Origin: Gammaproteobacteria bacterium
GTDB taxonomy: Bacteria; Pseudomonadota; Gammaproteobacteria; VBWC01
Direction: 5' to 3'
Length of the DNA stretch: 64,000 nucleotides
NCBI GenBank assembly: GCA_006218035.1
Contig: VBWC01000003.1
Span: 117,251 to 181,250 of the forward strand
The notes beneath the pieces are model-generated. The model was given only the letters and a program-made list of their open reading frames with translations. It did not search any database and had not been told where the DNA came from. The stretch's first letter is position 1. Every line of letters begins with the position of its first letter. Below are positions 12,627-27,829 of this stretch, one piece after another. The translations under genes and the position numbers were made by a program.

Positions 12627-12648
12627 TCTATATTGGTTCGATACGACA

Positions 12649-13212
12649 ATGAAAATTATCAAAACCAGCTTGCCCGACGTGGTCGTTGTTGAACCCGATG
12701 TATTTGCCGACGTGCGCGGAAAGTTTATGGAAACCTTCCGGGTCAATCGGTATCAGGAGGCCGGAATTCCTGGCCCGTTCGTGCAGGACAATTTTTCCCG
12801 TTCGCAACGCGGGGTGTTGCGCGGTCTACATTATCAGTTGCAAAAACCGCAAGGCAAGCTGGTCCAGGTGCTGCGCGGTGAGGTGTTTGACGTCGCCGTG
12901 GATATCCGGCGCGGATCACCGACCTTTCGCCAGTGGACTGCCGCGATACTGTCGGAGGAAAACAACCGGCAGATGTATATTCCGCCGGGTTTTGCGCACG
13001 GCTTTCTGGTGTTGAGCGAGACCGTCGACTTCGTTTACAAGTGCACTGACTACTATGATCGGGATGACGAATGCGGTGTGTTGTGGTCGGATCCGGCGAT
13101 CGGGATACGCTGGCCGGGCGGTGAGCAGCTTTTGTCAGCGAAGGATAGTGCCTTGCCGGAACTTGCGGCGATACCTGATGAAAAGCTGCCGGTATATCAG
13201 GCGTCACCATGA
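12649..13212 (+). CDS. rfbC: dTDP-4-dehydrorhamnose 3,5-epimerase
   Basis: The RmlC cupin motifs VRGKFMETFR...RGLHYQ...KLVQVLRGEVFDVAVDIR are present. The start was trimmed from the ORF-track coordinate 12571 to the ATG at 12649. Confidence 0.88.
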   Translation: MKIIKTSLPDVVVVEPDVFADVRGKFMETFRVNRYQEAGIPGPFVQDNFSRSQRGVLRGLHYQLQKPQGKLVQVLRGEVFDVAVDIRRGSPTFRQWTAAILSEENNRQMYIPPGFAHGFLVLSETVDFVYKCTDYYDRDDECGVLWSDPAIGIRWPGGEQLLSAKDSALPELAAIPDEKLPVYQASP

Positions 13213-14084
13213 CAATGCTGGTTACCGGTTGTGGCGGGCAGGTGGGAACCGAGCTGCTGCGCCGGGCGCGTGCCCACGGAATCGACGTGATCGGATTGTC
13301 CCACCAGGAACTCGATATCACCCGTTCAGATCAGGTTGATGCCGCTCTGTCGCGATTGCCCGTTACCGTCGTTGTGAATGCCGCCGCTTATACGGCGGTG
13401 GATCGCGCCGAGCATGACAAAGCGGCGGCGTTTGCCGTCAATCGCGACGGCCCTGCCAATCTGGCGCAATTTTGTACCGGGCAGGGAATCCCGTTGATCC
13501 ATATTTCCACGGATTATGTATTCGACGGAAACAAGCCGGGACCGTACACCGAGAATGATCCCGTTGCGCCATTGGGCGTGTATGGGGCGAGCAAGGCGGC
13601 GGGTGAGCAGGCGGTCCGGGAGCTGGCGCCCAAGCATGTGATCCTGCGTACTGCCTGGGTGTATAGCGCCCACGGCCATAATTTTGTCAAAACGATGTTA
13701 AGGCTGGGCCGCGAGCGCGATGAGATTGGCGTCGTGGCCGACCAGGTCGGCTGTCCAACGGCGGCCGGGGAAATCGCGGTAGCCATTATTACCGTGATAA
13801 AGGCGATGCAGGCGGGCGGTGACCCGTGGGGAACCTACCATTTCTGTGCGGCCGGTCAGGCGAGCTGGTACCAATTCGCCTGCCGGATCTTCGAGATTGC
13901 CTCACGTTACCGGCCGTACCCGGTGACGGTAAAGCCTATTCCCGGCACGGCATATCCGACACCAGTACGTCGTCCGGCAAATTCGGTACTGGATTGCTCC
14001 AGAATCGAGGAAACCTTCGACCTAGACCGACGCCCGTGGCCAGGGCCTCTCGCTGACGTTCTCGGCGAAATTCATAATAATTAA
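13209..14084 (+). CDS. rfbD: dTDP-4-dehydrorhamnose reductase
   Basis: It has MLVTGCGGQVGTEL and the YGASKAAGEQ active-site motif. The ATG overlaps the rfbC stop. Confidence 0.88.
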   Translation: MTMLVTGCGGQVGTELLRRARAHGIDVIGLSHQELDITRSDQVDAALSRLPVTVVVNAAAYTAVDRAEHDKAAAFAVNRDGPANLAQFCTGQGIPLIHISTDYVFDGNKPGPYTENDPVAPLGVYGASKAAGEQAVRELAPKHVILRTAWVYSAHGHNFVKTMLRLGRERDEIGVVADQVGCPTAAGEIAVAIITVIKAMQAGGDPWGTYHFCAAGQASWYQFACRIFEIASRYRPYPVTVKPIPGTAYPTPVRRPANSVLDCSRIEETFDLDRRPWPGPLADVLGEIHNN

Positions 14085-14175: not shown

Positions 14176-14203
14176 TAAAGTTATGCTCCCGAACGGCCGT
14201 TAA
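14176..14203 (+). promoter_or_regulatory. sigma-28 (FliA) type promoter upstream of fliC
   Basis: TAAAG is followed by a 16-nt spacer and GCCGTTAA (consensus TAAA-N15-GCCGATAA). It lies about 110 nt upstream of the fliC ATG. Confidence 0.6.
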
Positions 14204-14313: not shown

Positions 14314-15744
14314 ATGCCTCAAGTAATTAATACTAACGTTGCGTCGTTAAACGCCCAACGTAACCTGAATAAGTCCCAGACCGAATTGTCCGTCGCGCTG
14401 CAGCGTCTGTCTTCCGGTCTGCGTATCAACAGTGCCAAGGACGATGCCGCGGGACTGGCGATTTCGGAGCGGTTCACCACGCAGATTCGTGGTTTGAACC
14501 AGGCTGCCCGTAACGCGAGTGATGGTATTTCGCTGTCGCAAACGGCGGAATCGGCACTTGGCGAGTTGACAGCCAACCTGCAGCGTATCCGCGAGCTGGC
14601 TGTCCAGTCGGCGAACGGCTCTAACTCTGCATCCGATCGTGCGGCTCTTGATCTTGAAGTGCAGCAGCGTCTCGCGGAAATTGATCGTATCGCGACGCAA
14701 ACCACGTTCAACGGTCAGCGCGTCCTTGACGGTACGTTCGGTTCGCAGCAGTTCCAGGTCGGCGCGAACGTTGGTGACACGATCACTATAGATCTGAGCA
14801 CCGGTGTTCGTCTGACCCAGATCGGCCGTATCGCCAGCAGCACCGGCAGTGCGGTAGATGCAAACGCGTTGGCGGCCAATGACGTGACGATTAACGGTAC
14901 TGCAGTAGGTGCCGCCGTCGCTGGCACGGGCGCTCAGCAGACCGTCGACAGTGCTTATGCGAAGACCAACGCGATCAATAATTCCGGTATCGCGGATTTG
15001 ACAGCAACCGCCATCACGGGCACCAAGGGCTCGGACAATGCGAGCCAGGGTGTTACATTGACTGACGCTGGCGACTCGTATTCGCTGACCATCAACGGTG
15101 TGGCGGTTTACAGCACGACAGGTGCAACGACAGTCACCCAGGCCTCTTTGGTCTCAACGATTAACTCGTTTTCGACGCAGACCGGTGTGTCTGCCGCTGT
15201 CAGCGGTACAGCGCTTAATCTGACCACGACCGATGGGCGGAATATCGTAGTGGTCGCTGCGCAAACGGAAGCGGGCGGCGGTACGGCCGACACCACGAAA
15301 GTTGCGTTCTCCGCCGGCACGACGACGACACGCGGTACGGTCAAATTGCAATCGTCAGCCGCTATATCGGTAACCGGTACCGTGGCGCGTATTGGCCACA
15401 GCGTGGGCAGCATTGCGCTGGATACCAATACCTCTCTTTCCGGAATAGGCGTGACCACGATTACCAACTCCAACACGGCGATACAACGTGTGGATTCGGC
15501 GCTGACATCGGTCAGTAATCTGCGTAGTACCTTCGGTGCTATCCAGAGTCGTATGTCGTCCACGATCTCGAACCTGGAAGCGATCTCGGAAAACCTCGCT
15601 TCTTCACGCAGCCGAATCCTGGATGCGGATTTCGCCGCCGAAACGGCGTCGTTAACCCGCTCCCAGATTTTGCAGCAGGCAGGTATTGCGATTCTGGCCC
15701 AGGCGAACGCGGCTCCGCAGAATGCTCTGGCCTTGTTGCAGTAG
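14314..15744 (+). CDS. fliC: flagellin
   Basis: The conserved termini are MPQVINTNVASLNAQRNLNKSQ and LSLLQ-type ...APQNALALLQ. The central domain is rich in Ser/Thr/Gly/Ala. The start was trimmed from 14290 to the ATG at 14314 after a GAGGAGAG ribosome-binding site. Confidence 0.93.
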   Translation: MPQVINTNVASLNAQRNLNKSQTELSVALQRLSSGLRINSAKDDAAGLAISERFTTQIRGLNQAARNASDGISLSQTAESALGELTANLQRIRELAVQSANGSNSASDRAALDLEVQQRLAEIDRIATQTTFNGQRVLDGTFGSQQFQVGANVGDTITIDLSTGVRLTQIGRIASSTGSAVDANALAANDVTINGTAVGAAVAGTGAQQTVDSAYAKTNAINNSGIADLTATAITGTKGSDNASQGVTLTDAGDSYSLTINGVAVYSTTGATTVTQASLVSTINSFSTQTGVSAAVSGTALNLTTTDGRNIVVVAAQTEAGGGTADTTKVAFSAGTTTTRGTVKLQSSAAISVTGTVARIGHSVGSIALDTNTSLSGIGVTTITNSNTAIQRVDSALTSVSNLRSTFGAIQSRMSSTISNLEAISENLASSRSRILDADFAAETASLTRSQILQQAGIAILAQANAAPQNALALLQ

Positions 15745-16263: not shown

Positions 16264-16279
16264 TGGCCCTCGTTTTGCA
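16264..16279 (+). promoter_or_regulatory. sigma-54 type promoter upstream of fliD
   Basis: TGGCCC-N5-TTGCA has the GG and GC elements 10 nt apart (consensus TGGCAC-N5-TTGCA). It lies about 45 nt upstream of the fliD ATG. Confidence 0.55.
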
Positions 16280-16323: not shown

Positions 16324-18384
16324 ATGGCGACGATTTCCTCCCCCGGCCTGGGTTCGGGCCTGGACATAGCCCGCCTGGTCGGGGATCTGGTTGCCGCAGA
16401 GGCGAAACCGACGACCCTCAGGCTGGACCGTCGTGAAGCGGCGCTGCAGGCGGATTTATCGGCCTACGGCACGCTTCGCGGCGCTCTCTCGTCATTCTCG
16501 GCAACGCTGACAAAGATCAGCAGCCTGACGAGTTTTCAGGCCAGATCGGCTGGCTCCACGGATGACAAGGCGGTAAGGGCGACCGCGACCTCGACCGCAG
16601 TTACCGGAACCTACAATATCTCCGTCACTCAGCTCGCCAGGGCGCATTCGCTGGCGACGCCGGTGGGAGCATTCACGTCGATAACCGATCCGGTCGGCAC
16701 CGGCATCCTGACGTTCAAGTTCGGTGCTACTGTCCATACCGAGCCCGATACCTATACATCGTTTACCCAGAATGCGTCGGAGGCAATACAGACGGTCACG
16801 ATTGATTCCACCAACGACAGCCTGCAAGGTGTTCGAGACGCGATTAACGCGGCAAATATTGGCGTTACCGCGACGATTATCAACAATGGATCCGGCTATC
16901 GGCTGGTGATGACGTCCGGTGACACCGGCGCCAACCACAGCATGCAGATTACGGCCGACGATGACGATCTGAACGACACCAATGGTAGTGGCCTGTCGAT
17001 TTTGGCATTTAACGCATCGGCCACGAACATGATACAAACCCAGGCAGCGCAGGATGCTGCGCTGTCGATCAACAATATCGCCGTGACGAGCGACAAGAAC
17101 ACGCTGACGGAAGCCATCGAAGGCGTGACGTTGACGTTGCTCAAGGATGCTTCCTCAGCAACCGTGAGTGTCGCGACCGATGTGAACCTCGTTACAAAGA
17201 ATATTGAGGCGTTCGTTAACGGTTATAACACCCTTATCGGCAGCGTAAAACAACTGACCAAGTTCGATCCGACCGGAAAAAGCTCTGGCGTATTGCTGGG
17301 CGATACGACGACACGGGCCATCGAATCGCAAATCAACGCCATTTTAGGCGCTGGCGTGGATCAGCTCACCGGTCCCTATTCGATCCTGGCGGATATCGGC
17401 GTCACCCGGAACACGGACGGCACCCTGAAGCTTGACAGCAGCAAGCTGCAAACGGCGCTTGACACTAATTTTGATGCGGTTGCAGGGTTATTCGTTGCGC
17501 AGGGTAAACCGACGGACGCGTTGGTCAAGTTTACGGGGTCGACCGCGAGCACAAAGATAGGCTCTTATAGCGTTGGCGTGACGCAGCTTGCGACTCGAGG
17601 TGTCATCAACGGGAACGGTACGGGCGCGTTGGCTGACAATGGCGCCGGAAACTTCTCGACGCCGTTCAATGTGGATGTTGACAACGATGCCTTCAAGATC
17701 AAGGTTGATGGAATCGAGTCAGATACGATTACGCTCACTGCCGGAAATTACACAACGACCGCGTCACTGGCTGCGGAAATTCAGGCCAGGATCAACGGCG
17801 ATACGAATCTTGAAAATGTCGGAATCACCGTGGCAGTATCGTTTGATGCGATCAATAACCGGCTTGTGTTTACCTCTGATCGCTTTGGTTCGGCATCCAA
17901 GCTTGAATTTACCGAGGTGGATATCAATACTGGCGCGGAGCTCGGTTTTACCACTGCGCTGGTCGCGACGGACGGCGTCGATACTGCCGGCTCTATCGGC
18001 ACGCTGGGAGCATCCGGGTCCGGGCGTTTCCTGACCGGCACAGGCGACGCGACCGGTTTGAAGCTCGAGGTGATAGGCGGGGATACCGGAACGCGTGGTA
18101 ACGTCACTTTCACCCGTGGATACGCCGATCGGCTGAATACCTTGATTGATGAGTTTCTCAAAGGCAACGGTCTTCTCGATACGCGGGTCGTCGGGATTCA
18201 GGGGACAATCGATAATATCGAGGAGGACCGCGTGGCTCTGAACCGCCGCCTCGAGACGCTCGAGGCCAGATTATTCGCCCAGTTCAATGCAATGGATACA
18301 TTGGTTGCTCAATTAAGTGCTACCAGCAATTTTCTGACGCAGCAGCTGGCGGGTCTGCCAGGGGCCTCGCGGCGCAGCGGGTAA
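16324..18384 (+). CDS. fliD: flagellar filament cap protein FliD
   Basis: The 686-aa product has the N-terminal ISSPGLGSGLDIARLVGDLVAAEAKP motif and a C-terminal coiled coil. Confidence 0.9.
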   Translation: MATISSPGLGSGLDIARLVGDLVAAEAKPTTLRLDRREAALQADLSAYGTLRGALSSFSATLTKISSLTSFQARSAGSTDDKAVRATATSTAVTGTYNISVTQLARAHSLATPVGAFTSITDPVGTGILTFKFGATVHTEPDTYTSFTQNASEAIQTVTIDSTNDSLQGVRDAINAANIGVTATIINNGSGYRLVMTSGDTGANHSMQITADDDDLNDTNGSGLSILAFNASATNMIQTQAAQDAALSINNIAVTSDKNTLTEAIEGVTLTLLKDASSATVSVATDVNLVTKNIEAFVNGYNTLIGSVKQLTKFDPTGKSSGVLLGDTTTRAIESQINAILGAGVDQLTGPYSILADIGVTRNTDGTLKLDSSKLQTALDTNFDAVAGLFVAQGKPTDALVKFTGSTASTKIGSYSVGVTQLATRGVINGNGTGALADNGAGNFSTPFNVDVDNDAFKIKVDGIESDTITLTAGNYTTTASLAAEIQARINGDTNLENVGITVAVSFDAINNRLVFTSDRFGSASKLEFTEVDINTGAELGFTTALVATDGVDTAGSIGTLGASGSGRFLTGTGDATGLKLEVIGGDTGTRGNVTFTRGYADRLNTLIDEFLKGNGLLDTRVVGIQGTIDNIEEDRVALNRRLETLEARLFAQFNAMDTLVAQLSATSNFLTQQLAGLPGASRRSG

Positions 18385-18462: not shown

Positions 18463-18489
18463 TAAAGCATATGGCACTTAGGCCGATAA
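18463..18489 (+). promoter_or_regulatory. sigma-28 (FliA) type promoter upstream of fliS
   Basis: TAAAG-N15-GCCGATAA is an exact consensus match. It lies about 75 nt upstream of the fliS ATG. Confidence 0.7.
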
Positions 18490-19381: not shown

Positions 19382-19439
19382 TCGGGCGATCCCGGGCCGA
19401 TGCGACCGCACCACCTACCGCTCCGACACACCTCGCTTG

Positions 19440-22400
19440 TCACGATTTGCCGGTTTTGGCACTCAGCCCGACGCTGTCAAGAGCAGACCGCAACAGCTCG
19501 ATGTATTGATTCCGTACCGATGTCTTGTGGGCGATCAATCTTGCGGATTCGGCAGCGATGTCCATTGTTCGCAGCCGTTCCACAACGTCAACAGCGGACT
19601 CAACCGACGGATCGATGGTTTTCGATAGAAAACCATTGGCGCTCGTGAAGTATTGCGGCGCCGATATTACAAATGCGGGGATGCCCAGCGAGGCGCACAG
19701 GCCGGCGTCCTGCGCGCGCGTTGTAATCGTCATATCGAACGCATCGTAGATGCGCAGATAGTCAATGGCGTCGCTTGAGTAGTGAAAGTCCATGATATCC
19801 CCGAGCAGCGGCGTCAGCTCGGCGAGCTCACTGATATGGTGGCAGACCAGCGCACACTCGTAGTGCCGGGCGAGTTCCCGGTATAGATTCACGGTGTAGT
19901 GAAAGATCGACGGGTCCAGGCATTCGCTGGTTCTGCGTGATATCCCGGGCGTCGATAACGCGATGCGTTTTGTTTGCGTGCGCCATGTTGCGGTCTTCGC
20001 GCACAGCAACGTTGGGCAAGGCAACTGATGGGGATTCAGCGGGCGAAGCGTATTCCCACACGCTGTGTCGCGAACCGTGACCAGCAGCGAGCGGATAAGT
20101 AACAGTTGATCCAGGACCGCGACTTGCTCGAATTGGAAATCTTCCGTGTCCGACGCTGAGCCCAGGCCCAGATACATGGTCGGTATGGTCGTTTTGATAA
20201 GTCTATCGACCAACGGGCCGGCCATATCGCCTCGCCATGCCGTGATGCCGGTGAAAATTGCCAGATCAGCCGTTTCCAGATTGATGCCTGGATGCCATGA
20301 GTTGTCGCGCGTCGCTGACGGGTCGCGATAGTCGGCAGAGTCACGGCCATACGATCTATCCGGCGCGTCAGACGCTAACTGCGCTATGTCGGGGTGTCGT
20401 CGGTGAACAATCGGGTTGAAGTCCCCGATCAGTTCCGTGAGAAGATTCTGGATGCCATACCGCGCGAACTCCCCGTCCGTGTTGGTTGAGATCAGGATAT
20501 TCGGCCGAACCGTCGGCCGGGAACGATTGAAACGCCGTCCTATCATCAAATTCGGTACGTCGTGCGATCGGTCATAGTAGCGCGCAGGCACCTGGCGGGT
20601 GGCGGCGACGGCACGAAGTTCCGTGGCCAGCGCGGCGAAGGTGCCGGGCCAGTCCTGCGGCTCGGGCTGGCGAAACAGACGCATACTCGGATACCACGGG
20701 CTGTCGCTACGATCGAGCAACCAGCGCCAGTCCGCCACATAGGACAACAGCACCCATACTGGTTTTCCCATCGCTCCGCCAAGATGAGCGACGGATGTAT
20801 CGACGGATATGACCAGGTCCAGGTTTTCAACCAGCGCGGCACTGTCAGCAAACGTTAGTTGTTCGTTGGCCGCGTCGATCAGATGCATCCCCGCTGGCGG
20901 GTTGGCTGTCTGCTCCGCCCCCGTCCCTTTTTGCAGGCTGTGGAAAGTGACGCCAGGTATATCGCAGAGGCGTGCGAAATCTGCGAGCGAGCACGAGCGG
21001 TTCTTGTTATTGGCGTGACGGGGGTTTCCCGCCCACGCGAGTCCAACATTGAGGTGTCCCGGAACCATTTTTTCCTTCCACAAGCCGATACGTGCCGGGT
21101 CGGCGTGCAGATAGGGAACATCATTCGGGATGGTTCTAAACGTCGTACCGAACAGCGCCGGCAGGCTCAGCAGATAGGTGTGATAGTCGAAATCGACATC
21201 GGGTGCGGAACGCGTGTCCTGCACAATGAGCTGGTCGACGCCCTGCAAACCGGTGAAGAGATCGATCAATCCCGGCGGGCACTCGAATATCACATCGGCA
21301 CCCATTGCCTTGAGCATCGGCAGATACCGGACGAAATGCATTGAGTCGCCGATCCCTTGTTCCGCGTGCACCAGAATCCGCTTTCCGGCCAGCGGCTCGC
21401 CTTTCCAGCGCGGCTTTTTCATGGTCCGATGGTCGGGCCGTCGCTCCAGTATCTGGATACGCGATTCGTATGCCTTCCATGCGTCGGCAAAGCGGCCGAG
21501 CGTCAACATCACGATACCCTTGTTCAGATGGGCGTCCGCAAGGTCGGGCTGGATCATTATTGCCTCATCGAACCGGCCGTAGGCCGCGCTATAGTCACCC
21601 ATGTCCTTAAACGCTGTTCCCATGTTCATATGGGCAGCCGCGTAATCGCGCTTGAGCGACAACGCTGAGCGGTAATGCTGTATGGCGCCGGCAAAATCAC
21701 CGTTCGATTTGAGCGCGTTACCGAGGTTGCAATGCGCTTCGGCCATGCCGGGCTGTAGCTTCAGGGCGCTTTCAAAGTAGGCGATGGCGTCAGCGGTCTT
21801 GCCTTGTTGGCAGAGCGCATTGCCATAGCTGTTTAGCGTATGCGCATGTGCGGGATTGATCGCCAGTGCTTTTTCAAATAGCGGTAATGCGTCATCGATG
21901 CGATTTTGTTGCAGCTCCGCGAGCCCCAGGCTGTTCAGGGTGTCGACGTTGTCGGGCTCTATCGTCAGCAGCCGCCGATAACAGGCCGCCGCGGCTGCCG
22001 GCTCGCCCTTGCCATGCTGAAGTTCCGCGAGTATACGCAGCGCGTTGGCGTTGTTTCCGTCGCACTCCAGCGTCCGCCTGAACGCGTGGACTGCGTCGTC
22101 GGCGCGGTTCAGTTTCAACAGCGCGACGCCGAGGTTGAAATGGGCGAGAGAGAATGCCGGAGCGAGCTCCGTCGCTTTCGTAAAATGCTCGATCGCCAGC
22201 TCCGGATTGTTCCGCTTGAGCGCTACGTGCCCGAGGTTGTTGATCGCCTCGGGAAACGCCGGTCGCAGATGCGCTGCGCGGATATAACATTGCTCGGCAT
22301 CGTCGATGCGTTCCAGTTCAAGGTAGATACTGCCAAGATCATTCAGGATGCCCGGTTGTGCGGGGTCGATTGACAATGCCTGCTCACAGTGACGCACCGC

Positions 22401-22808
22401 CTCATCACGCTGCCCCTGGTTCTGCAATAGCCCGGCAAGCGCAATATGCGCCGCCAGATACAACGGGTCTATCGATAGCGCACTGCGGTGACAGGTAATG
22501 GCCTTGGCGGTATCGCCCGCGGCGGCGCAGGCCGAGGCCAGGTTCTGATAGTAGGACGGGGCGCGGGGATTGTGGCTGATTGCCTGTTCGATCAGGCTCG
22601 TCGCCGCCGCCGGATTGCCCTGTTGCAGCTCGGTCACACCCAGCAGATTCAAGGCGTCCGCATGACCGGGACTGGTGGCGAGAATCTTGCGATACAACCG
22701 CGCCGCACGCGCTATGTCGCCGGACTCATGCGCGCGCACGGCATTATCGAGTAATGCTGCGGATCGGGTTCCGACGTCGGCGATTTTCTCGCTGGTGTTA
22801 ATGCTCAT
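19440..22808 (-). CDS. TPR-repeat / GT9 (heptosyltransferase-like) glycosyltransferase with additional C-terminal domain (1122 aa)
   Basis: The N-terminal ~450 aa hold about 12 TPR units (repeated A..Y....L...P..A.A..NLG). The GT9 signatures are KRILVHAEQGIGDSMHFVRYLP and LVISVDTSVAHLGGAMGKPVWVLL. The C-terminal ~380 aa are of unclear family and may be pyruvyl-transferase-like (ITTRAQDAGLCASLGIPAFVIS). Confidence 0.75.
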   Translation of the reverse strand: MSINTSEKIADVGTRSAALLDNAVRAHESGDIARAARLYRKILATSPGHADALNLLGVTELQQGNPAAATSLIEQAISHNPRAPSYYQNLASACAAAGDTAKAITCHRSALSIDPLYLAAHIALAGLLQNQGQRDEAVRHCEQALSIDPAQPGILNDLGSIYLELERIDDAEQCYIRAAHLRPAFPEAINNLGHVALKRNNPELAIEHFTKATELAPAFSLAHFNLGVALLKLNRADDAVHAFRRTLECDGNNANALRILAELQHGKGEPAAAAACYRRLLTIEPDNVDTLNSLGLAELQQNRIDDALPLFEKALAINPAHAHTLNSYGNALCQQGKTADAIAYFESALKLQPGMAEAHCNLGNALKSNGDFAGAIQHYRSALSLKRDYAAAHMNMGTAFKDMGDYSAAYGRFDEAIMIQPDLADAHLNKGIVMLTLGRFADAWKAYESRIQILERRPDHRTMKKPRWKGEPLAGKRILVHAEQGIGDSMHFVRYLPMLKAMGADVIFECPPGLIDLFTGLQGVDQLIVQDTRSAPDVDFDYHTYLLSLPALFGTTFRTIPNDVPYLHADPARIGLWKEKMVPGHLNVGLAWAGNPRHANNKNRSCSLADFARLCDIPGVTFHSLQKGTGAEQTANPPAGMHLIDAANEQLTFADSAALVENLDLVISVDTSVAHLGGAMGKPVWVLLSYVADWRWLLDRSDSPWYPSMRLFRQPEPQDWPGTFAALATELRAVAATRQVPARYYDRSHDVPNLMIGRRFNRSRPTVRPNILISTNTDGEFARYGIQNLLTELIGDFNPIVHRRHPDIAQLASDAPDRSYGRDSADYRDPSATRDNSWHPGINLETADLAIFTGITAWRGDMAGPLVDRLIKTTIPTMYLGLGSASDTEDFQFEQVAVLDQLLLIRSLLVTVRDTACGNTLRPLNPHQLPCPTLLCAKTATWRTQTKRIALSTPGISRRTSECLDPSIFHYTVNLYRELARHYECALVCHHISELAELTPLLGDIMDFHYSSDAIDYLRIYDAFDMTITTRAQDAGLCASLGIPAFVISAPQYFTSANGFLSKTIDPSVESAVDVVERLRTMDIAAESARLIAHKTSVRNQYIELLRSALDSVGLSAKTGKS

Positions 22809-23056
22809 TCGCAGGGCAATCTCTCTTCATTAACTGTCGATCGCGTATCGGTGTAACGATGCTGGCCCTAAAAATGCATAATTTGTACCAGAGCCATCAT
22901 GTTAACGAGTGGACCCGGCATGCCGCTGCGATACCCGCAAAGCGGTCGATTCTTGCCGTATCAAACGATATGCTGGCCGATCACGCAGCAAGTTCCGCGA
23001 TACCCGACAGGCAATGACGACAAATAATTGACCGGAAGAGGCGGGCTGTCGAAGGC

Positions 23057-24880
23057 ATGGCACATACACAAAGGCATGATAGTTCGGTGACGACAGTCCC
23101 AGACAACACTCAGGCGGCAACGATTGATCGATGGATCGACGCGGCCTTGCAACACCACCAGGCCGGCCGTTTGCCCGATGCCGAGGCGCTGTATCGCCAG
23201 GCACTTGTGGAGCAACCCGATCATCCGGATGCACTGCATCTGCTCGGGTTCGTGGCGTATCAGTGCGGCCGGCACCAGCAGGCGCTTGAACTGATTTCGA
23301 CCGCCTTACGCCGCTCCCCGGATGCGCCCGATTTTCACAACCATCTCGGTCTGGTCCTGGCGGCGCTGGGCAGACCGGCAGACGCGATAGCGAGCTATGG
23401 CAACGCCCTGCGACTCGCGCCGGAATTTCCGGAAGCGCATAACAACCTCGGCATCCGGTTGCGCGAAGACGGTCGCCTGACGGAGGCGGAAGCGCACTAC
23501 CGCGCCGCGGTGGCGGCCCGGCCAGTGTTTTCGGATGCGTGGAATAACCTCGGCAACGTGTGTCGTGAACGCGGTGAATTCGATGCGGCCCTGGCGGCGT
23601 ATCGCGAAGCGCTGCGGCAACGGCCCGATTTCGCCGAGGCGCACAGCAATATCTTGTTTACATTGAGCCACTACTTGCTGGCTGATCCGGATCAGCTGCT
23701 GCAGGAACATCAGGGCTGGGACCGCGTGCATGGCGTTGCCGGGCGCGCACACGCCCACGCGCATCCGCGTCGCGGGGATCCGGAAAAACGCCTGCGTATC
23801 GGCTATGTATCGCCGGATTTTCGTTTGCACGCCGCGAACAGTTTCTTTGAGTCGCTGATCGCCGCGCACACCCGCGACGCGGTAGAGATCTTCTGTTACG
23901 CCGAAGTATCCCGGCCGGATGCGGTGACAGAGCGCATCCGCGTGAACGCCGATGTTTGGCGGAGTACCGTGGGGCTGTCGGATGACGCGCTCGGGCGGCA
24001 GATTCGCGACGACGGTATCGATATTCTGGTCGATCTGGCCGGGCATACGACCGGCAACCGGTTGCGCGTGTTTACCGGGAAACCGGCGCCGATACAAGTA
24101 TCTTATCTCGGCTACTGCGCGACGACCGGCCTGACCGCGATGGACTACTGGATTACCGACGGGGTGATTCACCCGCCCGATACGATCGAAAGGACAGTCG
24201 AAGCGATCATCCGGTTGCCGCGCTGCTGGGTGACCTACCGGCCGCCTGTGGACGCGCCGCCGGTTCGTTTACCGGCACGCAGTGGTATTACGTTCGGCTG
24301 TTTTAACGAACGTTCCAAGATCACGCCAGCCACGATCGCGCTGTGGAGCAGTATCCTGCTCGAACTGCCTGATGCCCGCCTGGTGCTCAAGGCGCGCCAG
24401 TACGCCGATGACAGTGTCCGGCAGGCGATCATCGATACCTTTACGCAGCACGGGGTGGCCGCAAACCGGTTGGTGTTTCTGCCAGCTACCGGTTACCTCG
24501 ATTACCTCGCCGCCTATCAAGACGTCGATATCGCGCTGGATCCGGTACCTCGCGCGGGCGGCGTGACCACAGCGGACGCGTTGTGGATGGGCGTGCCGGT
24601 GATCACCTTGTGCGGGCAGCGTTTCATCGAGCGCCACGGCGCGAGCCTGTTACGTGCCGCCGGCATGGACGAGTGGATCGCCGTGACGCCGCGGGATTAC
24701 GTTGACAAGGCGCTGGCGCTCGCGCGTGACCACGTGCACCGGCGTACTATGCGGCTGGCCCAGCGTGACCGTATGGCGGCGTCGCCATTGTGTGACGCAT
24801 TGGCCCATGCGCGCGCCATGGAACAAATCTACCGGGACATGTGGCGCGCATACGTGCGCAACACACCCCTGACTTCATGA
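23057..24880 (+). CDS. TPR-repeat protein with C-terminal GT41 (O-GlcNAc-transferase/SPINDLY-like) glycosyltransferase domain (607 aa)
   Basis: About 5 TPR units span aa 25-200. The C-terminal domain carries RIGYVSPDFRLHA...APIQVSYLGYCATTG...GGVTTADALWMGVPVITLCGQRFIERHGASLL, typical of the bacterial OGT-like family (COG3914). Confidence 0.8.
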   Translation: MAHTQRHDSSVTTVPDNTQAATIDRWIDAALQHHQAGRLPDAEALYRQALVEQPDHPDALHLLGFVAYQCGRHQQALELISTALRRSPDAPDFHNHLGLVLAALGRPADAIASYGNALRLAPEFPEAHNNLGIRLREDGRLTEAEAHYRAAVAARPVFSDAWNNLGNVCRERGEFDAALAAYREALRQRPDFAEAHSNILFTLSHYLLADPDQLLQEHQGWDRVHGVAGRAHAHAHPRRGDPEKRLRIGYVSPDFRLHAANSFFESLIAAHTRDAVEIFCYAEVSRPDAVTERIRVNADVWRSTVGLSDDALGRQIRDDGIDILVDLAGHTTGNRLRVFTGKPAPIQVSYLGYCATTGLTAMDYWITDGVIHPPDTIERTVEAIIRLPRCWVTYRPPVDAPPVRLPARSGITFGCFNERSKITPATIALWSSILLELPDARLVLKARQYADDSVRQAIIDTFTQHGVAANRLVFLPATGYLDYLAAYQDVDIALDPVPRAGGVTTADALWMGVPVITLCGQRFIERHGASLLRAAGMDEWIAVTPRDYVDKALALARDHVHRRTMRLAQRDRMAASPLCDALAHARAMEQIYRDMWRAYVRNTPLTS

Positions 24881-27189
24881 GCGTCAACCAACATATCGCG
24901 GGATCGCGGCTCGACAAACTGCTGGCCGACGCGGTGGCGCTGCATCAGGCCGGGAATCTCGCCGCGGCAGATACCCTGTATCGCGAGGCGCTGGCGATTG
25001 ATCGGCAACTCCCCGGCGCACTTTACGGTGCCGGTGTGGTCGCTCATCAGCTGGGCCACAACGATACGGCGATCGAATTGCTCGATGCGGCGCTACGCCA
25101 TCGTCCCGATGAACCGGCCTGGCTCAACATGCGCGGTCTGGTGTATGCGGCAATCGGCCGGATTGAGATGGCGCTCGAGGACTTTCAGCATGCCATCAGG
25201 CTTGAGCCGGACTTCGCCGAGGCGTACAACAGCATCGGTGTGACGCTGCGCAAGCAGGGTCGGGTCGATGAGGCGATCGAGTATTACCGGCAGGCGATTG
25301 AATGTCGTCCGGACCTCGTTATGGCGCATAACAATCTTGGCAACGCTCTCAAGAGCAAAGGGGCGCTCGACGCAGCGTTAGACCATTATCGCCATGCCTT
25401 GACGCTGCAGCCGGATTTCGTCGAGGCGATCAACAATCTCGGTACGGTCTACACGATGCAGGGGTCACTCGACGAGGCGCATGACGCATTCGAAAGAGCA
25501 CTGCAACTGCGGCCGGAATACCCGGACGCGCTGAATAATCTTGGCGTGGTTTATCAGAAGCGGGGAGACATTTCAGCCGCGCGGCAGTGCTTCGAGCGCG
25601 CGCTCCGGATCAGTCCGGGATTCGCCGCCGCGCACGCGAATCTGGCGTCCGCGCAGAATGCGCAGGAGGAGTTTTACAACGCGATCGAGTCTTGCCGCCA
25701 GGCACTGGCGATTGCGCCGGAGTTTCCCGAGGCCTATTTCAACCTGGGCATTGCGTTCAAGGATCTCGGTTTGCCGCTGAAGGCGCTGAAATACTTCGAA
25801 ACCGCCGTCAGACTGCGGCCGAACTACGCTGGCGCCTACAACGGCATCGCCAACGTCTGCCGCGACCAGGGGCAATTCGAGCTGGCCGGAACGTTCTATC
25901 GTGAAGCGTTGAGCGCTGATCCAACGAACCATGAAGTACATAACAATCTGCTGTTTACCATGAGCCATCACGTGATGACCACTCCGGAGGCGTTACTGGA
26001 GGCGCATCGGGACTGGGCGGCTAGCCATTGCCATGAAGGACGGGTGCATCGGTATACGCACTCTCCCGCGACGGCCCATGACGGGCGACGCTTGCGTATC
26101 GGTTACGTGTCACCGGATTTCCGCCGGCATGCCGCCGCCATCTTTCTGGAGCCGTTGCTCGCGGCTCACGACCGGCGGGTCGTCGAGATTTATTGTTACG
26201 CCGAACTTGTCCGTACCGATCAGGTGACCACGCGCTTCCGTCAGAGCGCGGACGCCTGGCGCGATACCGCCGGGATGAGCGACACGCAGCTGGCCCGACA
26301 GATCGTCGATGACCGGATCGATATCCTTGTCGATCTGGCCGGGCATACCGCCGGCAATCGGTTGACGATGTTTGCCTTCAAGCCGGCACCGGTGCAGGCG
26401 ACCTATCTCGGCTACTGTGCGACCACCGGTCTGGAAGAAATCGATTACTGGATCAGCGACGACGTGATACATCCGGCGGATACCTGCGAACTGGCGGTTG
26501 AGCAGATCCTGCGGTTGCCGCGCTGCTGGGTGAGTTACCAGCCGCCGGTCGATGCGCCGGAGGTGCAGATATCGCAACACGATCACATTACATTCGGATG
26601 TTTCAATGACCGCAGCAAGATCACGCCGGAGGTGGTCGCTGCGTGGAGCGGGATTCTCGATCGCGTACCTGGTTCGCGGTTGGTGCTGAAAGCGCGCCAG
26701 TACGCCGATGCGGACATCAATGCCGAGCTGATCGGTATGTTCCGGCAACATGGTATTGACGCGACGCGGCTCGAGTTCCAGCCGCTGTCGCTGCCCGGCG
26801 AATATCTGGCCAGTTATCACGCGATCGATATCGCGCTCGATCCGTTCCCGCGGCACGGCGGCGTTACTACGGCGGATGCCTTGTGGATGGGTGTGCCCGT
26901 GGTGACGCTGATTGGCGAGCGGTTCATCGAACGGCATGGTGCCAGCCTGCTGGCGGCAATCGGCGCACAGGACTGGATTGCCCAAGACCTCGAATGCTAT
27001 ATCGAGATCGCCGTGGCGTTGGCAGCGGATCCCGGTCGGCGTCACGCGTTGCGCCTGACGCAGCGGCAACGCGTGCGCGAGTCACCGTTGTGCGATCCGC
27101 AGGGATTGGCCAGGGCGATGGAGGGGCTCTATCGGCGGATGTGGCGCCGATATGTCCAATCGGCTTACGGTTCAACTCCCGCTTGCTAG
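24877..27189 (+). CDS. paralogous TPR-repeat / GT41 (OGT-like) glycosyltransferase (770 aa)
   Basis: The TPR array is longer (about 10 units), and the C-terminal domain is near-identical in motifs to the upstream gene (RIGYVSPDFRRHA...APVQATYLGYCATTG...GGVTTADALWMGVPVVTLIGERFIERHGASLL). Its ATG forms an ATGA overlap with the upstream stop. Confidence 0.8.
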   Translation: MSVNQHIAGSRLDKLLADAVALHQAGNLAAADTLYREALAIDRQLPGALYGAGVVAHQLGHNDTAIELLDAALRHRPDEPAWLNMRGLVYAAIGRIEMALEDFQHAIRLEPDFAEAYNSIGVTLRKQGRVDEAIEYYRQAIECRPDLVMAHNNLGNALKSKGALDAALDHYRHALTLQPDFVEAINNLGTVYTMQGSLDEAHDAFERALQLRPEYPDALNNLGVVYQKRGDISAARQCFERALRISPGFAAAHANLASAQNAQEEFYNAIESCRQALAIAPEFPEAYFNLGIAFKDLGLPLKALKYFETAVRLRPNYAGAYNGIANVCRDQGQFELAGTFYREALSADPTNHEVHNNLLFTMSHHVMTTPEALLEAHRDWAASHCHEGRVHRYTHSPATAHDGRRLRIGYVSPDFRRHAAAIFLEPLLAAHDRRVVEIYCYAELVRTDQVTTRFRQSADAWRDTAGMSDTQLARQIVDDRIDILVDLAGHTAGNRLTMFAFKPAPVQATYLGYCATTGLEEIDYWISDDVIHPADTCELAVEQILRLPRCWVSYQPPVDAPEVQISQHDHITFGCFNDRSKITPEVVAAWSGILDRVPGSRLVLKARQYADADINAELIGMFRQHGIDATRLEFQPLSLPGEYLASYHAIDIALDPFPRHGGVTTADALWMGVPVVTLIGERFIERHGASLLAAIGAQDWIAQDLECYIEIAVALAADPGRRHALRLTQRQRVRESPLCDPQGLARAMEGLYRRMWRRYVQSAYGSTPAC

Positions 27190-27829
27190 CTGTCGAGCGC
27201 ATGGATTATTGTGCACGGGTATGACGGAACCACATAACGACAGGTTGGGCAGCGGTCTGGTCTATACCGACTCGATACCATTCTCGTGGCGGCAACTCGA
27301 TACCGTTACCGGCGATGCTGCCGCGGCTCACATCGGTCACCACAGCCTGCAGGTGCTGCGGCTGATTCTGTCGATAGAGGAACAGGGGCCGGAGCCGGTC
27401 GCGGATGCCGATCCGGAGCACGAGAACATCGCCCGGCTGGAATTCAAGCTGAATCTGCTGATCGATCTGGTCGGCTACCTGCTCGCGCAGAATTCCCTGA
27501 TCCCGCCCCGTGTGCTTGTAAGCCTGAGTGCGGACGGACTGGAATGGGGCAGTGACGATGCGCCGCAGCTGGGCAGCTATGTTGAACTGGCGTTATACCT
27601 GAGCCCGAAATATCCGCGGCCAGTGACCTTGCCAGGCTTCATCGAAGCCGTGGATGTAACGCCGGAGGGCGGCTACCGCACACGTGCGATCTTTCCAGAG
27701 CTGAGCGTCCCGCTGCAGGACGCGCTGGAGAAATTCATCTTTCGTCATCACCGCCGGATCATTGCGAGCCGGCGTGGCGAAACCTCGACAGCGGATGAGC
27801 ATACTGGAGTAATGCAACACGATTCCTAA
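27152..27829 (+). CDS. hypothetical protein (225 aa) immediately upstream of fleQ
   Basis: The ORF overlaps the preceding gene by 38 nt, and an alternative in-frame ATG lies at 27221. No confident family assignment was possible from the sequence. It has an acidic middle region and a basic C-terminus. Confidence 0.5.
   Translation: MSNRLTVQLPLASCRAHGLLCTGMTEPHNDRLGSGLVYTDSIPFSWRQLDTVTGDAAAAHIGHHSLQVLRLILSIEEQGPEPVADADPEHENIARLEFKLNLLIDLVGYLLAQNSLIPPRVLVSLSADGLEWGSDDAPQLGSYVELALYLSPKYPRPVTLPGFIEAVDVTPEGGYRTRAIFPELSVPLQDALEKFIFRHHRRIIASRRGETSTADEHTGVMQHDS

What the first reader, a model, noticed from the sequence alone, without database searches (positions are those of the whole stretch)
19440..27189. 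Three large TPR-glycosyltransferase genes inserted between fliT and fleQ form a candidate flagellin O-glycosylation module
In Pseudomonas-type clusters fliS/fliT is followed directly by fleQ. Here a 7.7-kb insert carries three TPR-repeat glycosyltransferases instead. One is a TPR-GT9-like tri-domain protein on the opposite strand; two are tandem TPR-GT41 (O-GlcNAc-transferase/SPINDLY-like) paralogs. TPR-OGT-like enzymes are the established flagellin glycosyltransferases in Burkholderia. The flagellin and FliD in this window are rich in Ser/Thr. Together with the rml operon next to fliC, this looks like a dedicated flagellin (and possibly cap) glycosylation system of unusual enzyme composition.
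Basis: partly seen in the sequence, partly recalled or inferred. Interest (0 to 1): 0.7.

Follow-up and report, generated by a model that had tools for sequence, protein, structure and literature searches.

The report
Candidate flagellin glycosylation island
Three large repeat-plus-glycosyltransferase genes sit inside the flagellar gene cluster of an uncultured gammaproteobacterium and most likely attach sugars to the flagellar filament protein; this kind of system is already known, here with an unusual set of enzymes.

Summary
Between fliT and fleQ lie three intact genes for soluble TPR-glycosyltransferases. ORF-A (19440-22808, minus) combines TPR, a GT9-like domain and a third GT-B domain. 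ORF-B (23057-24880) and ORF-C (true start 24877, to 27189) are 54% identical TPR-GT41 paralogues. A tPilZ gene follows. The window is otherwise one continuous Pseudomonas-type flagellar/chemotaxis cluster, with rmlBACD between flgL and fliC.

New support for a flagellar role:
- The module, and in one relative also rmlBACD-fliC, is syntenic in three other metagenomic lineages.
- A conserved sigma-54-type promoter footprint precedes ORF-B.
- TPR-GT9 and TPR-GT41 genes recur next to fliC/fliS in at least six other phyla.

- ORF-A's third domain is pyruvyltransferase-like, but its two near-invariant motifs are broken here.
- The GT41s keep the catalytic Lys/His but have Arg where SPINDLY has Tyr744, so the donor sugar is unknown.
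- Ser/Thr-rich flagellin is not diagnostic.
- Distant family members are mostly not flagellum-linked.
- GT41 and GT9 enzymes in flagellin glycosylation islands are already documented.

Verdict: a plausible flagellin glycosylation island, a new variant of a known kind, unproven without mass spectrometry. Interest is moderate.

The parts
19440..22808 (-). ORF-A, 1122 aa, soluble three-domain protein. Domains: TPR array with an Asn ladder (aa 1-455; nt 21444-22808), GT9-like GT-B domain (aa ~456-745; nt 20574-21443), and a PS_pyruv_trans-like GT-B domain with broken motifs (aa ~746-1122; nt 19443-20573). The public record calls it 'Flp pilus assembly protein TadD' (KAF0193035.1).
23057..24880 (+). 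ORF-B, 607 aa (597 aa if GTG 23087 is the start, as in KAF0193036.1). About 5-6 TPRs plus a GT41 catalytic domain of the 'R-type' donor-site subfamily.
24877..27189 (+). ORF-C, 770 aa. About 10 TPRs plus an R-type GT41 catalytic domain. Its start overlaps the ORF-B stop (ATGA), which suggests translational coupling.
22862..22891 (+). Conserved sigma-54-type -24/-12 promoter footprint, cTGGCCCTAAAAATGCATAATTTGTACCAGAG, oriented towards ORF-B/ORF-C. It is the only conserved block of the ORF-A/ORF-B intergenic region.
27152..27829 (+). tPilZ (PF16823) gene, conserved immediately downstream of ORF-C in all relatives (193-201 aa there, so the true start is probably later than 27152). Its membership in the module is uncertain.
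10681..14084 (+). rmlB-rmlA-rmlC-rmlD (dTDP-L-rhamnose synthesis) between flgL and fliC. The same arrangement occurs in relative L003.
14314..15744 (+). fliC (476 aa from Met; central domain 33-38% Ser/Thr), the presumed acceptor. Its own sigma-28 promoter lies at 14176-14203.
16324..18384 (+). fliD (filament cap), a possible second acceptor. A sigma-54-type promoter lies at 16264-16279.

Best explanation
This is a two-part flagellin glycosylation island of a Pseudomonas-type polar flagellar cluster.

Proposed mechanism:
- RmlBACD, encoded between flgL and fliC, makes dTDP-L-rhamnose.
- ORF-B and ORF-C, and ORF-A transcribed divergently, are cytoplasmic enzymes. Their TPR superhelices carry the Asn ladder seen in OGT/SPINDLY and bind extended stretches of newly made flagellin (possibly also FliD).
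- Their GT-B catalytic domains then transfer sugars to Ser/Thr, or onto the growing glycan, before FliS-dependent export.
- The ORF-B/C operon is driven by a sigma-54 (FleQ/FleR-class) promoter. The enzymes are therefore present before sigma-28-dependent flagellin synthesis.
- The two GT41 paralogues differ mainly in TPR number, which suggests different site or acceptor specificity.
- ORF-A supplies a second, GT9-like transferase activity. In some relatives it probably also supplies glycan pyruvylation, but that domain looks inactive in this genome.

Shown here: gene content, domain families, conserved catalytic residues, absence of export signals, synteny, the promoter footprints, and recurrence next to flagellin genes elsewhere.

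Inferred: the acceptor (flagellin), the donor sugars (rhamnose), the order of action, and the regulation.
For: 1. Context. The window is one uninterrupted flagellar/chemotaxis cluster running flgE...flgKL, fliC-flaG-fliD-fliS-fliT, fleQSR, fliE-R, flhBAF, fleN, fliA, cheAB, motAB. The only non-flagellar genes are rmlBACD, the three TPR-GT genes, tPilZ, and an MCP plus a porin.

2. Synteny. The order fliT-(TPR-methyltransferase)-ORF-A-ORF-B-ORF-C-tPilZ-fleQ is kept in L001/L003, L002 and L005. Protein identities there are 51-76% for the GTs and 69-91% for the core flagellar and regulatory proteins compared (FliD, FliS, FleQ, FleS, FleR, FliF). rmlBACD-fliC is kept in L003.

3. Independent arrangement. 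A 44%-identical three-domain ORF-A homologue (P0127) lies directly upstream of fliC-fliD-fliS and is preceded by a sigma-54-like element.

4. Recurrence.
- 7 of 80 GTDB loci with TPR-GT9 genes carry fliC, fliD, fliS or flgKL within 10 kb. My rough estimate of the chance expectation is below 1.
- L018 (Planctomycetota) has four GT41 genes, fliS, fliC and a divergent (TPR-GT9)x2 gene.
- L055 (Verrucomicrobiota) has (TPR-GT9)x2, fliC and a GT41 gene.
- L024 (Geobacteraceae) has flgKL, (TPR-GT9)x3 and two GT41 genes.

5. Regulation.
- The pattern TGGC-N7-WTGCW occurs 6 times in the window, all on the + strand, against 2.4 expected. Four matches lie just upstream of fliD, ORF-B, fliK and fliL.
- The ORF-B copy is the only conserved block of its intergenic region in four lineages.
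- Sigma-28 promoters are found only at fliC, fliS and a GGDEF-EAL gene.

6. Enzymes look active and cytoplasmic.
- The equivalents of SPY D491, H495, N661 and the essential K665 are conserved in ORF-B, ORF-C and all orthologues (residue roles from PMC9715652).
- Asn ladders show 34-residue spacing, and there is no signal peptide or transmembrane segment.

7. Precedent.
- The FlmG TPR domain binds flagellins and is needed for glycosylation (PMC7591256).
- A glycosyltransferase domain combined with TPRs inside a flagellar locus is used as the flagellin-glycosyltransferase signature (PMC13317340).
- GT41 and GT9 enzymes occur in enterobacterial flagellin glycosylation islands (PMC4875605, PMC6993521).
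Against: - There are no direct data on the flagellin of this organism, which is a MAG.
- The tight flagellar linkage of the R-type GT41s is seen only in a narrow clade. R-type relatives at 44-50% full-length identity (P0048, P0037, P0085) sit in non-flagellar contexts.
- 73 of 80 TPR-GT9 loci, including ones from Microcoleus and Singulisphaera, have no flagellar neighbours.
- rmlBACD has no recognisable flagellar promoter, is separated from fliC by fliC's own sigma-28 promoter, and could serve LPS.
- Donor-site residues differ from both SPY and OGT, so the sugar cannot be named.
- GT9 enzymes classically use ADP-heptose, and no heptose genes are in the window.
- No promoter was identified for ORF-A.
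- The sigma-54 assignment rests on sequence pattern and conservation only.
Confidence: 0.6

Rival explanations
1. The three enzymes are OGT/SPINDLY-like intracellular protein glycosyltransferases. Their main targets would be non-filament proteins, for example flagellar regulators such as FleQ/FleN, c-di-GMP effectors such as the adjacent tPilZ, or many cytoplasmic proteins. Their position in the cluster would then reflect co-regulation with motility rather than filament decoration.
For: - The closest solved relatives are the regulatory enzymes SPINDLY and OGT.
- The genes lie next to fleQ and a conserved tPilZ gene.
- A PilZ gene also lies near an R-type GT41 in L086.
- Distant R-type GT41 and TPR-GT9 genes are mostly outside flagellar loci, which suggests broader acceptor ranges.
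- A cyanobacterial GT41 acts on a pilin rather than a flagellin (PMC9306852).
Against: - The module is linked to sugar-nucleotide genes beside fliC.
- An ORF-A homologue lies immediately upstream of fliC in another arrangement.
- The same two families flank fliC/fliS in several phyla.
- The GT genes evolve faster than the core flagellar genes. From general knowledge, this is typical of surface-glycan islands.
Confidence: 0.2
2. The genes are cell-envelope glycan genes, for LPS core or O-antigen (GT9 heptosyltransferase-like, rml) or for pyruvylated EPS, that happen to be embedded in the flagellar cluster.
For: - GT9, the rml genes and PS_pyruv_trans are classic LPS/EPS families.
Against: - All three proteins carry long TPR arrays with Asn ladders, which are protein- and peptide-binding modules. 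None has a membrane segment.
- GT41 is a protein glycosyltransferase family (PMC9715652).
- The position inside the flagellar cluster is conserved, with a flagellar-type sigma-54 promoter.
- No flippase, polymerase or lipid-carrier glycosyltransferase gene is in the window.
Confidence: 0.05
3. One or more of the proteins act mainly without catalysis, as TPR scaffolds, chaperones or anti-repressors of flagellar genes. Listeria GmaR is a precedent: a flagellin glycosyltransferase that is also an anti-repressor.
For: - GmaR is a precedent for a bifunctional role (PMC3150276, PMC9638930).
- ORF-A's third domain has lost near-invariant catalytic motifs here and in two relatives, showing that parts of these proteins tolerate loss of activity.
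- The genes are close to fleQ.
Against: - Catalytic Lys/His/Asn/Asp of both GT41s, and the GD and DTxxAHL motifs of the GT9-like domain, are invariant across orthologues.
- Sugar-nucleotide genes are linked to the module.
Confidence: 0.1

Closest known systems
Caulobacter crescentus FlmG (flagellin O-glycosyltransferase, TPR + GT-B)
   Same: It is a soluble cytoplasmic enzyme with an N-terminal TPR domain and a C-terminal GT-B glycosyltransferase. The TPR domain binds flagellins and is required for modification, and the enzyme is expressed before flagellin secretion (PMC7591256). The mechanism proposed here is the same.
   Different: FlmG is a single 596-aa enzyme that transfers pseudaminic acid. 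Here there are three enzymes from two other GT-B families (GT41, GT9-like), and rml genes rather than nonulosonate genes are linked. Sequence homology to FlmG was not tested.
Arabidopsis SPINDLY and bacterial GT41 enzymes (XcOGT, TtOGT, HMW1C)
   Same: ORF-B and ORF-C align over TPRs plus the whole catalytic domain (E 1e-125 and 1e-139). They keep D491, H495, N661 and the essential K665, as well as the Asn ladder.
   Different: The donor-site residues that make SPY a GDP-fucose enzyme are replaced: S496A, H728Y, Y744R, T747G, T748V (PMC9715652). SPY-type bacterial homologues (P0012, P0013, P0095) keep all five. ORF-B and ORF-C are therefore not SPY orthologues in specificity.
Burkholderia cenocepacia FlmQ (BCAL0111), flagellin glycosyltransferase
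   Same: It is a flagellin glycosyltransferase encoded beside fliC, and its deletion gives non-glycosylated flagellin and reduced motility (PMC4462625). From memory, unverified here, it is a TPR/OGT-like protein and the glycan is a dTDP-derived 6-deoxy sugar.
   Different: The domain family and homology could not be checked, because the primary paper and the sequence are not held. It is a single enzyme, not three.
Enterobacterial flagellin glycosylation islands with GT41 (COG3914) or GT9 enzymes
   Same: Comparative genomics already places SPINDLY-family GT41 enzymes in 14 of 42 island types (PMC4875605) and GT9 enzymes in flag-2 variable region 1 (PMC6993521).
   Different: Those islands sit next to the flagellin gene of peritrichous or lateral systems. 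A TPR-GT9-pyruvyltransferase fusion, tandem R-type GT41s, and a site between fliT and fleQ with a sigma-54 promoter are not described there. None of those islands has been characterised biochemically either.
Pseudomonas aeruginosa a-type and P. syringae flagellin glycosylation islands
   Same: From general knowledge, the island lies between flgL and fliC, exactly where rmlBACD lies here. The glycans are linked to Ser/Thr through L-rhamnose. The cluster organisation fliC-flaG-fliD-fliS-fliT-fleQSR is the same.
   Different: From memory, the Pseudomonas transferases (FgtA/OrfN, Fgt1/Fgt2) are not TPR-GT41 or TPR-GT9 proteins and are encoded between flgL and fliC, not between fliT and fleQ.
Ketal-pyruvyltransferases CsaB / Pvg1p (PF04230)
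   Different: The window copy has NTDG and R-A-Q-D instead, and its 90% relative has R-M-D-G. His is present in 141 of 146 family members, so the domain is probably inactive here. Fusion to TPR-GT9 and linkage to flagellin are not described; no paper was found.
Autotransporter heptosyltransferases (TibC/Aah, BAHT family)
   Same: They are a precedent that heptosyltransferase-related GT-B enzymes can O-glycosylate Ser residues of proteins in the cytoplasm (PMC4358343).
   Different: BAHTs have no TPR array and act on autotransporter passenger domains. No homology beyond the GT-B fold was shown here.

Membership tests
GT41 (OGT/SPINDLY family, PF13844) | Pfam PF13844 match above the gathering score, preceded by a TPR array | tested here: met
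   ORF-B scores 176.1 bits and ORF-C 179.0 bits against a cut-off of 25. TPR families score E 1e-28 to 1e-75.
GT41 (OGT/SPINDLY family, PF13844) | Catalytic-site residues: the essential Lys (SPY K665), His (H495), Asn (N661) and Asp (D491) | tested here: met
   All four are conserved in ORF-B, ORF-C and 13 relatives. Residue roles come from PMC9715652.
GT41 (OGT/SPINDLY family, PF13844) | Asparagine ladder in the TPRs next to the catalytic domain | tested here: met
   Asn at 34-residue spacing: ORF-B N130/N164/N198; ORF-C N153/187/221/255/289.
SPINDLY-type protein O-fucosyltransferase (sub-type of GT41) | Donor-site residues S496, H728, Y744, T747, T748 | tested here: not met
   They are replaced by A, Y, R, G, V in ORF-B, ORF-C and all orthologues. 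Bacterial Y-type homologues keep all five.
GT9 (heptosyltransferase family, PF01075) | Pfam PF01075 match above the gathering score | tested here: inconclusive
   The window domain scores 20.6 bits against a cut-off of 22. Orthologues P0127 (25.8) and P0123 (22.6) pass.
GT9 (heptosyltransferase family, PF01075) | GT-B fold closest to solved GT9 enzymes | tested here: met
   The model has mean pLDDT 83, above 90 over the domain. The top Foldseek PDB hits are 1psw (WaaF), 3tov (GT9) and 2h1h (WaaC) at E 6e-8 to 6e-7, but other GT-B folds score almost as well.
GT9 (heptosyltransferase family, PF01075) | Use of ADP-heptose, and a lipid A-core acceptor | not testable with these tools
   No heptose biosynthesis genes are in the window. 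The TPR fusion argues for a protein acceptor.
PS_pyruv_trans (ketal-pyruvyltransferases, PF04230) | Pfam PF04230 match | tested here: inconclusive
   The window copy gives no hit. Orthologues P0122 and P0127 match the full model (53 and 56 bits against a cut-off of 25.3). A profile of the family finds no PDB sequence.
PS_pyruv_trans (ketal-pyruvyltransferases, PF04230) | PEP-binding R-x-H motif (CsaB R306/H308) and the N-x-G-D motif | tested here: not met
   The window has R-A-Q-D and N-T-D-G. Among 152 aligned family members (146 with a residue at the R-x-H columns, 126 at the N-x-G-D columns), R is present in 144/146, H in 141/146, and G-D in 124/126. The 90% relative has R-M-D-G. H308A/R inactivates CsaB (PMC10435577).
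Flagellin glycosylation island / flagellin glycosyltransferase | Glycosyltransferase genes inside the flagellar cluster next to fliC/fliD/fliS/fliT, with conserved linkage | tested here: met
Flagellin glycosylation island / flagellin glycosylation glycosyltransferase | Linked nucleotide-sugar biosynthesis genes | tested here: met
   rmlBACD lies between flgL and fliC in the window and in L003.
Flagellin glycosylation island / flagellin glycosyltransferase | Cytoplasmic enzyme with a protein-binding (TPR) module | tested here: met
   No signal peptide is present and the maximum 19-residue hydropathy is below 1.6.
Flagellin glycosylation island / flagellin glycosyltransferase | Expression within the flagellar regulon | tested here: inconclusive
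   A conserved sigma-54-type footprint lies upstream of ORF-B. It is a prediction only, and no promoter was found for ORF-A.
Flagellin glycosylation island / flagellin glycosyltransferase | Flagellin carries an O-linked glycan that depends on these genes | not testable with these tools
   This needs mass spectrometry and mutants or heterologous reconstitution.
Flagellin glycosylation island / flagellin glycosyltransferase | Sequence homology to an experimentally proven flagellin glycosyltransferase (FlmG, FlmQ, Maf, Fgt) | not tested
   Sequences of those proteins were not available through the tools. The FlmQ paper is not held.

The most novel reading that the evidence does not exclude
TPR-GT9 (often in two or three tandem modules) and TPR-GT41 enzymes together form a widespread, biochemically uncharacterised flagellin glycosylation machinery. 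It is found beside fliC in at least seven phyla: Pseudomonadota, Planctomycetota, Verrucomicrobiota, Desulfobacterota, Bacteroidota, Armatimonadota and Ignavibacteriota. Within it, the Arg-for-Tyr744 'R-type' GT41s would use a donor new to the family, for example dTDP-L-rhamnose, which would make them GT41 protein O-rhamnosyltransferases. In relatives with an intact third domain, the flagellin glycan would be ketal-pyruvylated, a modification not reported for flagellins.
Probability: 0.2. Interest if true: 0.7.

Novelty: new variant of a known kind. Interest (0 to 1): 0.4.

Why it matters
Flagellin glycosylation affects filament assembly, motility, phage and immune recognition. Only a handful of flagellin glycosyltransferases have been characterised: Maf, FlmG, GmaR, Fgt and FlmQ.

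If this reading is right, the locus adds three things:
- GT41 enzymes with a distinct donor pocket.
- A GT9-like protein glycosyltransferase.
- In relatives, a fused pyruvyltransferase.

It also suggests that the very abundant, unannotated bacterial 'TPR repeat protein' genes of these two families are protein glycosyltransferases. ORF-A is publicly named TadD and ORF-B is named hypothetical.

The Arg/Tyr position would be a simple handle for testing donor specificity in GT41.

The practical limit is that the organism is an uncultured MAG, so testing needs heterologous reconstitution.

Tried and rejected
- A word-indexed homology search with the third domain of ORF-A alone returned a single fragment. 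The exhaustive representative search was needed instead (325 representatives, mostly stand-alone proteins of about 360 aa).
- A profile of that domain against PDB sequences found nothing.
- The metagenome scan with that domain gave 9 loci, none with flagellar genes. Most were short contigs or stand-alone genes.
- The hypothesis that the R-type GT41 subfamily is flagellum-specific was rejected. P0048, P0037 and P0085 lie in unrelated contexts, with no rml genes nearby.
- The hypothesis that the region is a recent foreign insertion was not supported. GC content is like the flanks and the module is shared across relatives.
- A sigma-28 promoter for the GT genes was searched for and not found.
- The simple sigma-70 and terminator scans were not above shuffled expectation.
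- NCBIfam gave only sub-threshold TPR-driven hits, plus weak NGT (HMW1C-like) similarity for the GT41 domains.
- The primary Burkholderia papers (JBC 2014; J Bacteriol 2011) are not held.
- The taxonomy of the MAG below 'Gammaproteobacteria' was not resolved. The one genome-contig scan returned no close relative.

Full report
**1. Observation**

The ORF scan shows three long ORFs exactly where the finding places them:
- 19440-22808 on the minus strand, 1122 aa (ORF-A)
- 23057-24880 on the plus strand, 607 aa (ORF-B)
- 24841-27189 on the plus strand (ORF-C)

Pfam places all three in the TPR families at E 1e-28 to 1e-75. ORF-B and ORF-C also match PF13844 (Glyco_transf_41) at 176 and 179 bits against a cut-off of 25. 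Their best solved relative is Arabidopsis SPINDLY (E 9e-125 and 5e-139), ahead of human OGT, Thermobaculum OGT and Xanthomonas OGT. The two are 54% identical over 567 residues, so they are true paralogues.

The sequence at the ORF-B/ORF-C junction reads ttcATGAgc. ORF-C therefore most likely starts at ATG 24877, overlapping the ORF-B stop. This gives 770 aa, the length of all orthologues and of the public record.

The flanks are as stated. fliS, fliT and fleQ are confirmed, and flgK, flgL, rmlB, rmlA, rmlC, rmlD, fliC, flaG and fliD lie upstream. A fourth gene, tPilZ (PF16823), sits between ORF-C and fleQ.

The rest of the window is a contiguous Pseudomonas-type flagellar and chemotaxis cluster: flgE, flgI, fliI, fliK, fliL, fliM, fliP, fliR, flhB, flhA, flhF, fleN, fliA, cheA, cheB and motAB. 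The window comes from a MAG labelled 'Gammaproteobacteria bacterium' (FD165). There ORF-A is named 'Flp pilus assembly protein TadD', ORF-B 'hypothetical protein' and ORF-C 'O-GlcNAc transferase SPINDLY family'.

**2. Anatomy of ORF-A**

*TPR region.* Residues 1-455 are TPRs.

*GT9-like domain.* Residues ~456-745 give only a sub-threshold PF01075 (GT9) hit, 20.6 bits against 22, but orthologues pass. An AlphaFold model of residues 455-1122 has mean pLDDT 83. Its best Foldseek PDB hits are the GT9 heptosyltransferases WaaF, 3tov and WaaC, although other GT-B enzymes score almost as well. The GD and VDTSVAHL motifs are invariant among orthologues. This domain belongs to a very large family of 'TPR repeat proteins' at 45-50% identity. 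Many of them carry two or three TPR-GT9 modules in tandem.

Within 152 aligned members, two motifs are nearly invariant:
- N-x-G-D: 124 of 126
- R-[VLI]-H-G: R in 144 of 146, H in 141 of 146

The window copy reads N-T-D-G and R-A-Q-D. Its 90% relative reads R-M-D-G, and P0123 reads C-L-P-A. In CsaB the corresponding R306 and H308 bind PEP, and H308A or H308R abolishes activity (PMC10435577). This domain is therefore probably inactive in this genome but intact in some relatives (L002, L005, L004).

**3. GT41 active sites**

I aligned ORF-B, ORF-C and their relatives to SPINDLY residues 408-847. The equivalents of D491, H495, N661 and the essential K665 are conserved throughout. The residues that shape the SPY donor site are replaced in ORF-B, ORF-C and all their orthologues: S496 to A, H728 to Y, Y744 to R, T747 to G and T748 to V. 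Other bacterial homologues keep all five SPY residues (residue roles in PMC9715652).

The Arg variant defines a subfamily, 33 of about 108 top hits. According to the SPY structure paper, the residue at position 744 sets the size of the sugar pocket across GT41. The enzymes here look catalytically competent, but their donor cannot be read from sequence. It is unlikely to be GDP-fucose or UDP-GlcNAc handled in the known way.

All three proteins have Asn ladders at 34-residue spacing. None has a signal peptide or membrane segment. They are therefore cytoplasmic enzymes built to grip extended polypeptide.

**4. Evidence that the module belongs to the flagellum**

(a) *Synteny.* The order fliT-ORF-A(reverse)-ORF-B-ORF-C-tPilZ-fleQ-fleS-fleR-fliE-fliF is kept on three other metagenomic contigs. 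The GT proteins are 51-76% identical and the core flagellar and regulatory proteins compared (FliD, FliS, FleQ, FleS, FleR, FliF) 69-91%. Two of these contigs carry an extra TPR-methyltransferase gene between fliT and ORF-A. The one contig that extends far enough also has rmlBACD directly upstream of fliC.

(b) *A second arrangement.* A 44%-identical three-domain homologue lies directly upstream of fliC-fliD-fliS on another contig.

(c) *Regulation.* The sigma-54 pattern TGGC-N7-WTGCW occurs six times in the window, all on the plus strand, against 2.4 expected. Four of the six lie just upstream of fliD, ORF-B, fliK and fliL. The copy at 22863-22878 sits in the only conserved block, about 30 nt, of an otherwise diverged intergenic region in four lineages. 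Sigma-28 promoters (3 matches against 0.01 expected) occur only at fliC, fliS and a GGDEF-EAL gene. The GT operon would therefore be switched on with the earlier flagellar classes, ahead of flagellin. This is the logic reported for Caulobacter (PMC7591256).

(d) *Recurrence.* A scan of GTDB species representatives returned 80 loci with TPR-GT9 genes. Seven have fliC, fliD, fliS or flgKL within 10 kb, and five of those within about 2 kb. My rough estimate of the chance expectation is below one locus. Three of the seven also carry GT41 genes:
- A Planctomycete: four GT41 genes, fliS, fliC and a divergent (TPR-GT9)x2 gene.
- A Verrucomicrobium: (TPR-GT9)x2, fliC and a GT41 gene.
- A Geobacteraceae MAG: flgKL, (TPR-GT9)x3 and two GT41 genes.

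**5. Evidence that limits the claim**

- The families are not flagellum-specific. 73 of the 80 TPR-GT9 loci have no flagellar neighbour, including ones from Microcoleus and Singulisphaera.
- Three R-type GT41 relatives at 44-50% full-length identity (52-61% over the catalytic domain) lie in unrelated contexts, without rml genes.
- Stand-alone homologues of the third domain are not near flagellar genes.
- The high Ser/Thr content of FliC and FliD (24% and 22% against 12% background) is ordinary for these proteins.
- rmlBACD has no recognisable flagellar promoter and is not co-transcribed with fliC, so it could also feed LPS.
- No promoter was found for ORF-A.
- Nothing here shows that the flagellin is actually modified.

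**6. Mechanism proposed**

RmlBACD supplies dTDP-L-rhamnose. FleQ/FleR with sigma-54 turn on ORF-B and ORF-C. Their TPR superhelices, and that of ORF-A, bind unfolded stretches of newly made flagellin. Their GT-B domains then glycosylate Ser/Thr of the central domain, and extend the glycan, before FliS-guided export.

The paralogues differ in TPR number (about 5-6 against about 10), so they may differ in site or acceptor (FliC against FliD). ORF-A adds a different sugar. Pyruvylation and methylation are accessory steps present in some relatives and lost here.

Gene content, domains, residues, synteny and promoter footprints are shown. Acceptor, donors and order of action are inferred. I put 0.6 on flagellar-filament glycosylation as the primary function. 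The rivals are:
- 0.2: another protein acceptor or a regulatory role in the manner of OGT.
- 0.1: a mainly non-catalytic role in the manner of GmaR.
- 0.05: envelope polysaccharide synthesis.

**7. Comparison with what is known**

It works like FlmG of Caulobacter, where the TPR binds flagellin and a GT-B domain transfers the sugar (PMC7591256). It is placed like the Pseudomonas islands, whose flgL-fliC site is occupied here by rml (from general knowledge).

Use of GT41 and GT9 enzymes in flagellin glycosylation islands has already been inferred by comparative genomics in Enterobacterales (PMC4875605, PMC6993521). A glycosyltransferase domain combined with TPRs is an accepted signature of flagellin glycosyltransferases (PMC13317340). 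Burkholderia FlmQ is an experimentally supported flagellin glycosyltransferase (PMC4462625). I could not verify its domain family or test homology.

I could not find the following described anywhere:
- The TPR-GT9-pyruvyltransferase fusion next to flagellin (no paper links pyruvyltransferases to flagellin).
- The R-type donor pocket.
- The fliT-fleQ location with a sigma-54 promoter.
- The cross-phylum pairing of multi-module TPR-GT9 with GT41 genes around fliC.

**8. Verdict**

I rate it a new variant of a known kind, a flagellin glycosylation island with TPR-guided cytoplasmic transferases. Interest is 0.4: useful to specialists in bacterial protein glycosylation and GT41 specificity, but not surprising in principle, and hard to test directly because the organism is uncultured.

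Noticed in passing
window 19443-20573 (-), C-terminal domain of ORF-A; also P0390 and P0123: The pyruvyltransferase-like domain has lost two near-invariant family motifs: N-x-G-D reads NTDG, and R-x-H-G reads RAQD. The 90%-identical relative has RMDG and P0123 has CLPA, while L002, L005 and L004 homologues keep both motifs. This looks like lineage-specific decay of one domain inside an otherwise conserved fusion protein.
   Followed up: yes
L001 4450-6501; L002 4231-6363 (absent from window 19382-19439): Two relatives carry an extra 683-710 aa TPR + class I SAM-methyltransferase gene between fliT and ORF-A. The window and L005 lack it; in the window only 58 nt separate fliT from ORF-A. It may methylate the glycan or flagellin.
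   Followed up: partly
window 27152-27829 (+): A tPilZ (atypical PilZ, PF16823) gene lies between ORF-C and fleQ and is conserved in all relatives. Orthologues are 193-201 aa, so the true start is probably downstream of 27152. A canonical PilZ gene also lies about 1 kb upstream of an R-type GT41 in L086.
   Followed up: partly
window 39101-42063 (+): A methyl-accepting chemotaxis protein gene and a porin gene are inserted between fliK and fliL. The region has lower GC (0.53-0.57 against about 0.60-0.65 on either side).
   Followed up: no
window 16264-16279, 37752-37767, 42718-42733 (+): Sigma-54-type -24/-12 elements lie just upstream of fliD, fliK and fliL. The fliD element is conserved in L001, L002 and L005.
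   Followed up: partly
window 14176-14203 (+), 18463-18489 (+), 62812-62838 (-): Three exact sigma-28 (FliA)-type promoters (0.01 expected) lie upstream of fliC, fliS and the REC-GGDEF-EAL gene at 60804-62684 (-). This suggests that the c-di-GMP enzyme belongs to the late flagellar class.
   Followed up: no
L018 67-14300; L024 11030-18785; L014 9028-19922: Other phyla have striking arrays. L018 (a Planctomycete) has four tandem GT41 genes next to fliS-fliC. Several loci encode multi-module (TPR-GT9)x2 or x3 proteins. L014 alternates GT9-like and GT41 modules over about 11 kb.
   Followed up: partly
L092 5549-11098: A stand-alone homologue of the pyruvyltransferase-like domain (PF04230, E 3e-19) lies beside two SecB paralogues, a TPR-GT9 gene, a Ser/Thr kinase and a DnaJ-domain protein, with no flagellar genes nearby. 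The meaning of this context is unexplained.
   Followed up: no
L086 11989-21956: An R-type GT41 of an anammox-like MAG sits next to a sugar-modification cluster (GT1, GT2, methyltransferases, DegT aminotransferase, formyltransferase, radical SAM). No flagellin gene lies within 10 kb. It may be a protein or surface-glycan glycosylation locus of another kind.
   Followed up: no
window 19440-22808 and 23057-24880: Public annotations are misleading. ORF-A is named 'Flp pilus assembly protein TadD' on the strength of its TPRs, and ORF-B is named 'hypothetical protein'.
   Followed up: yes
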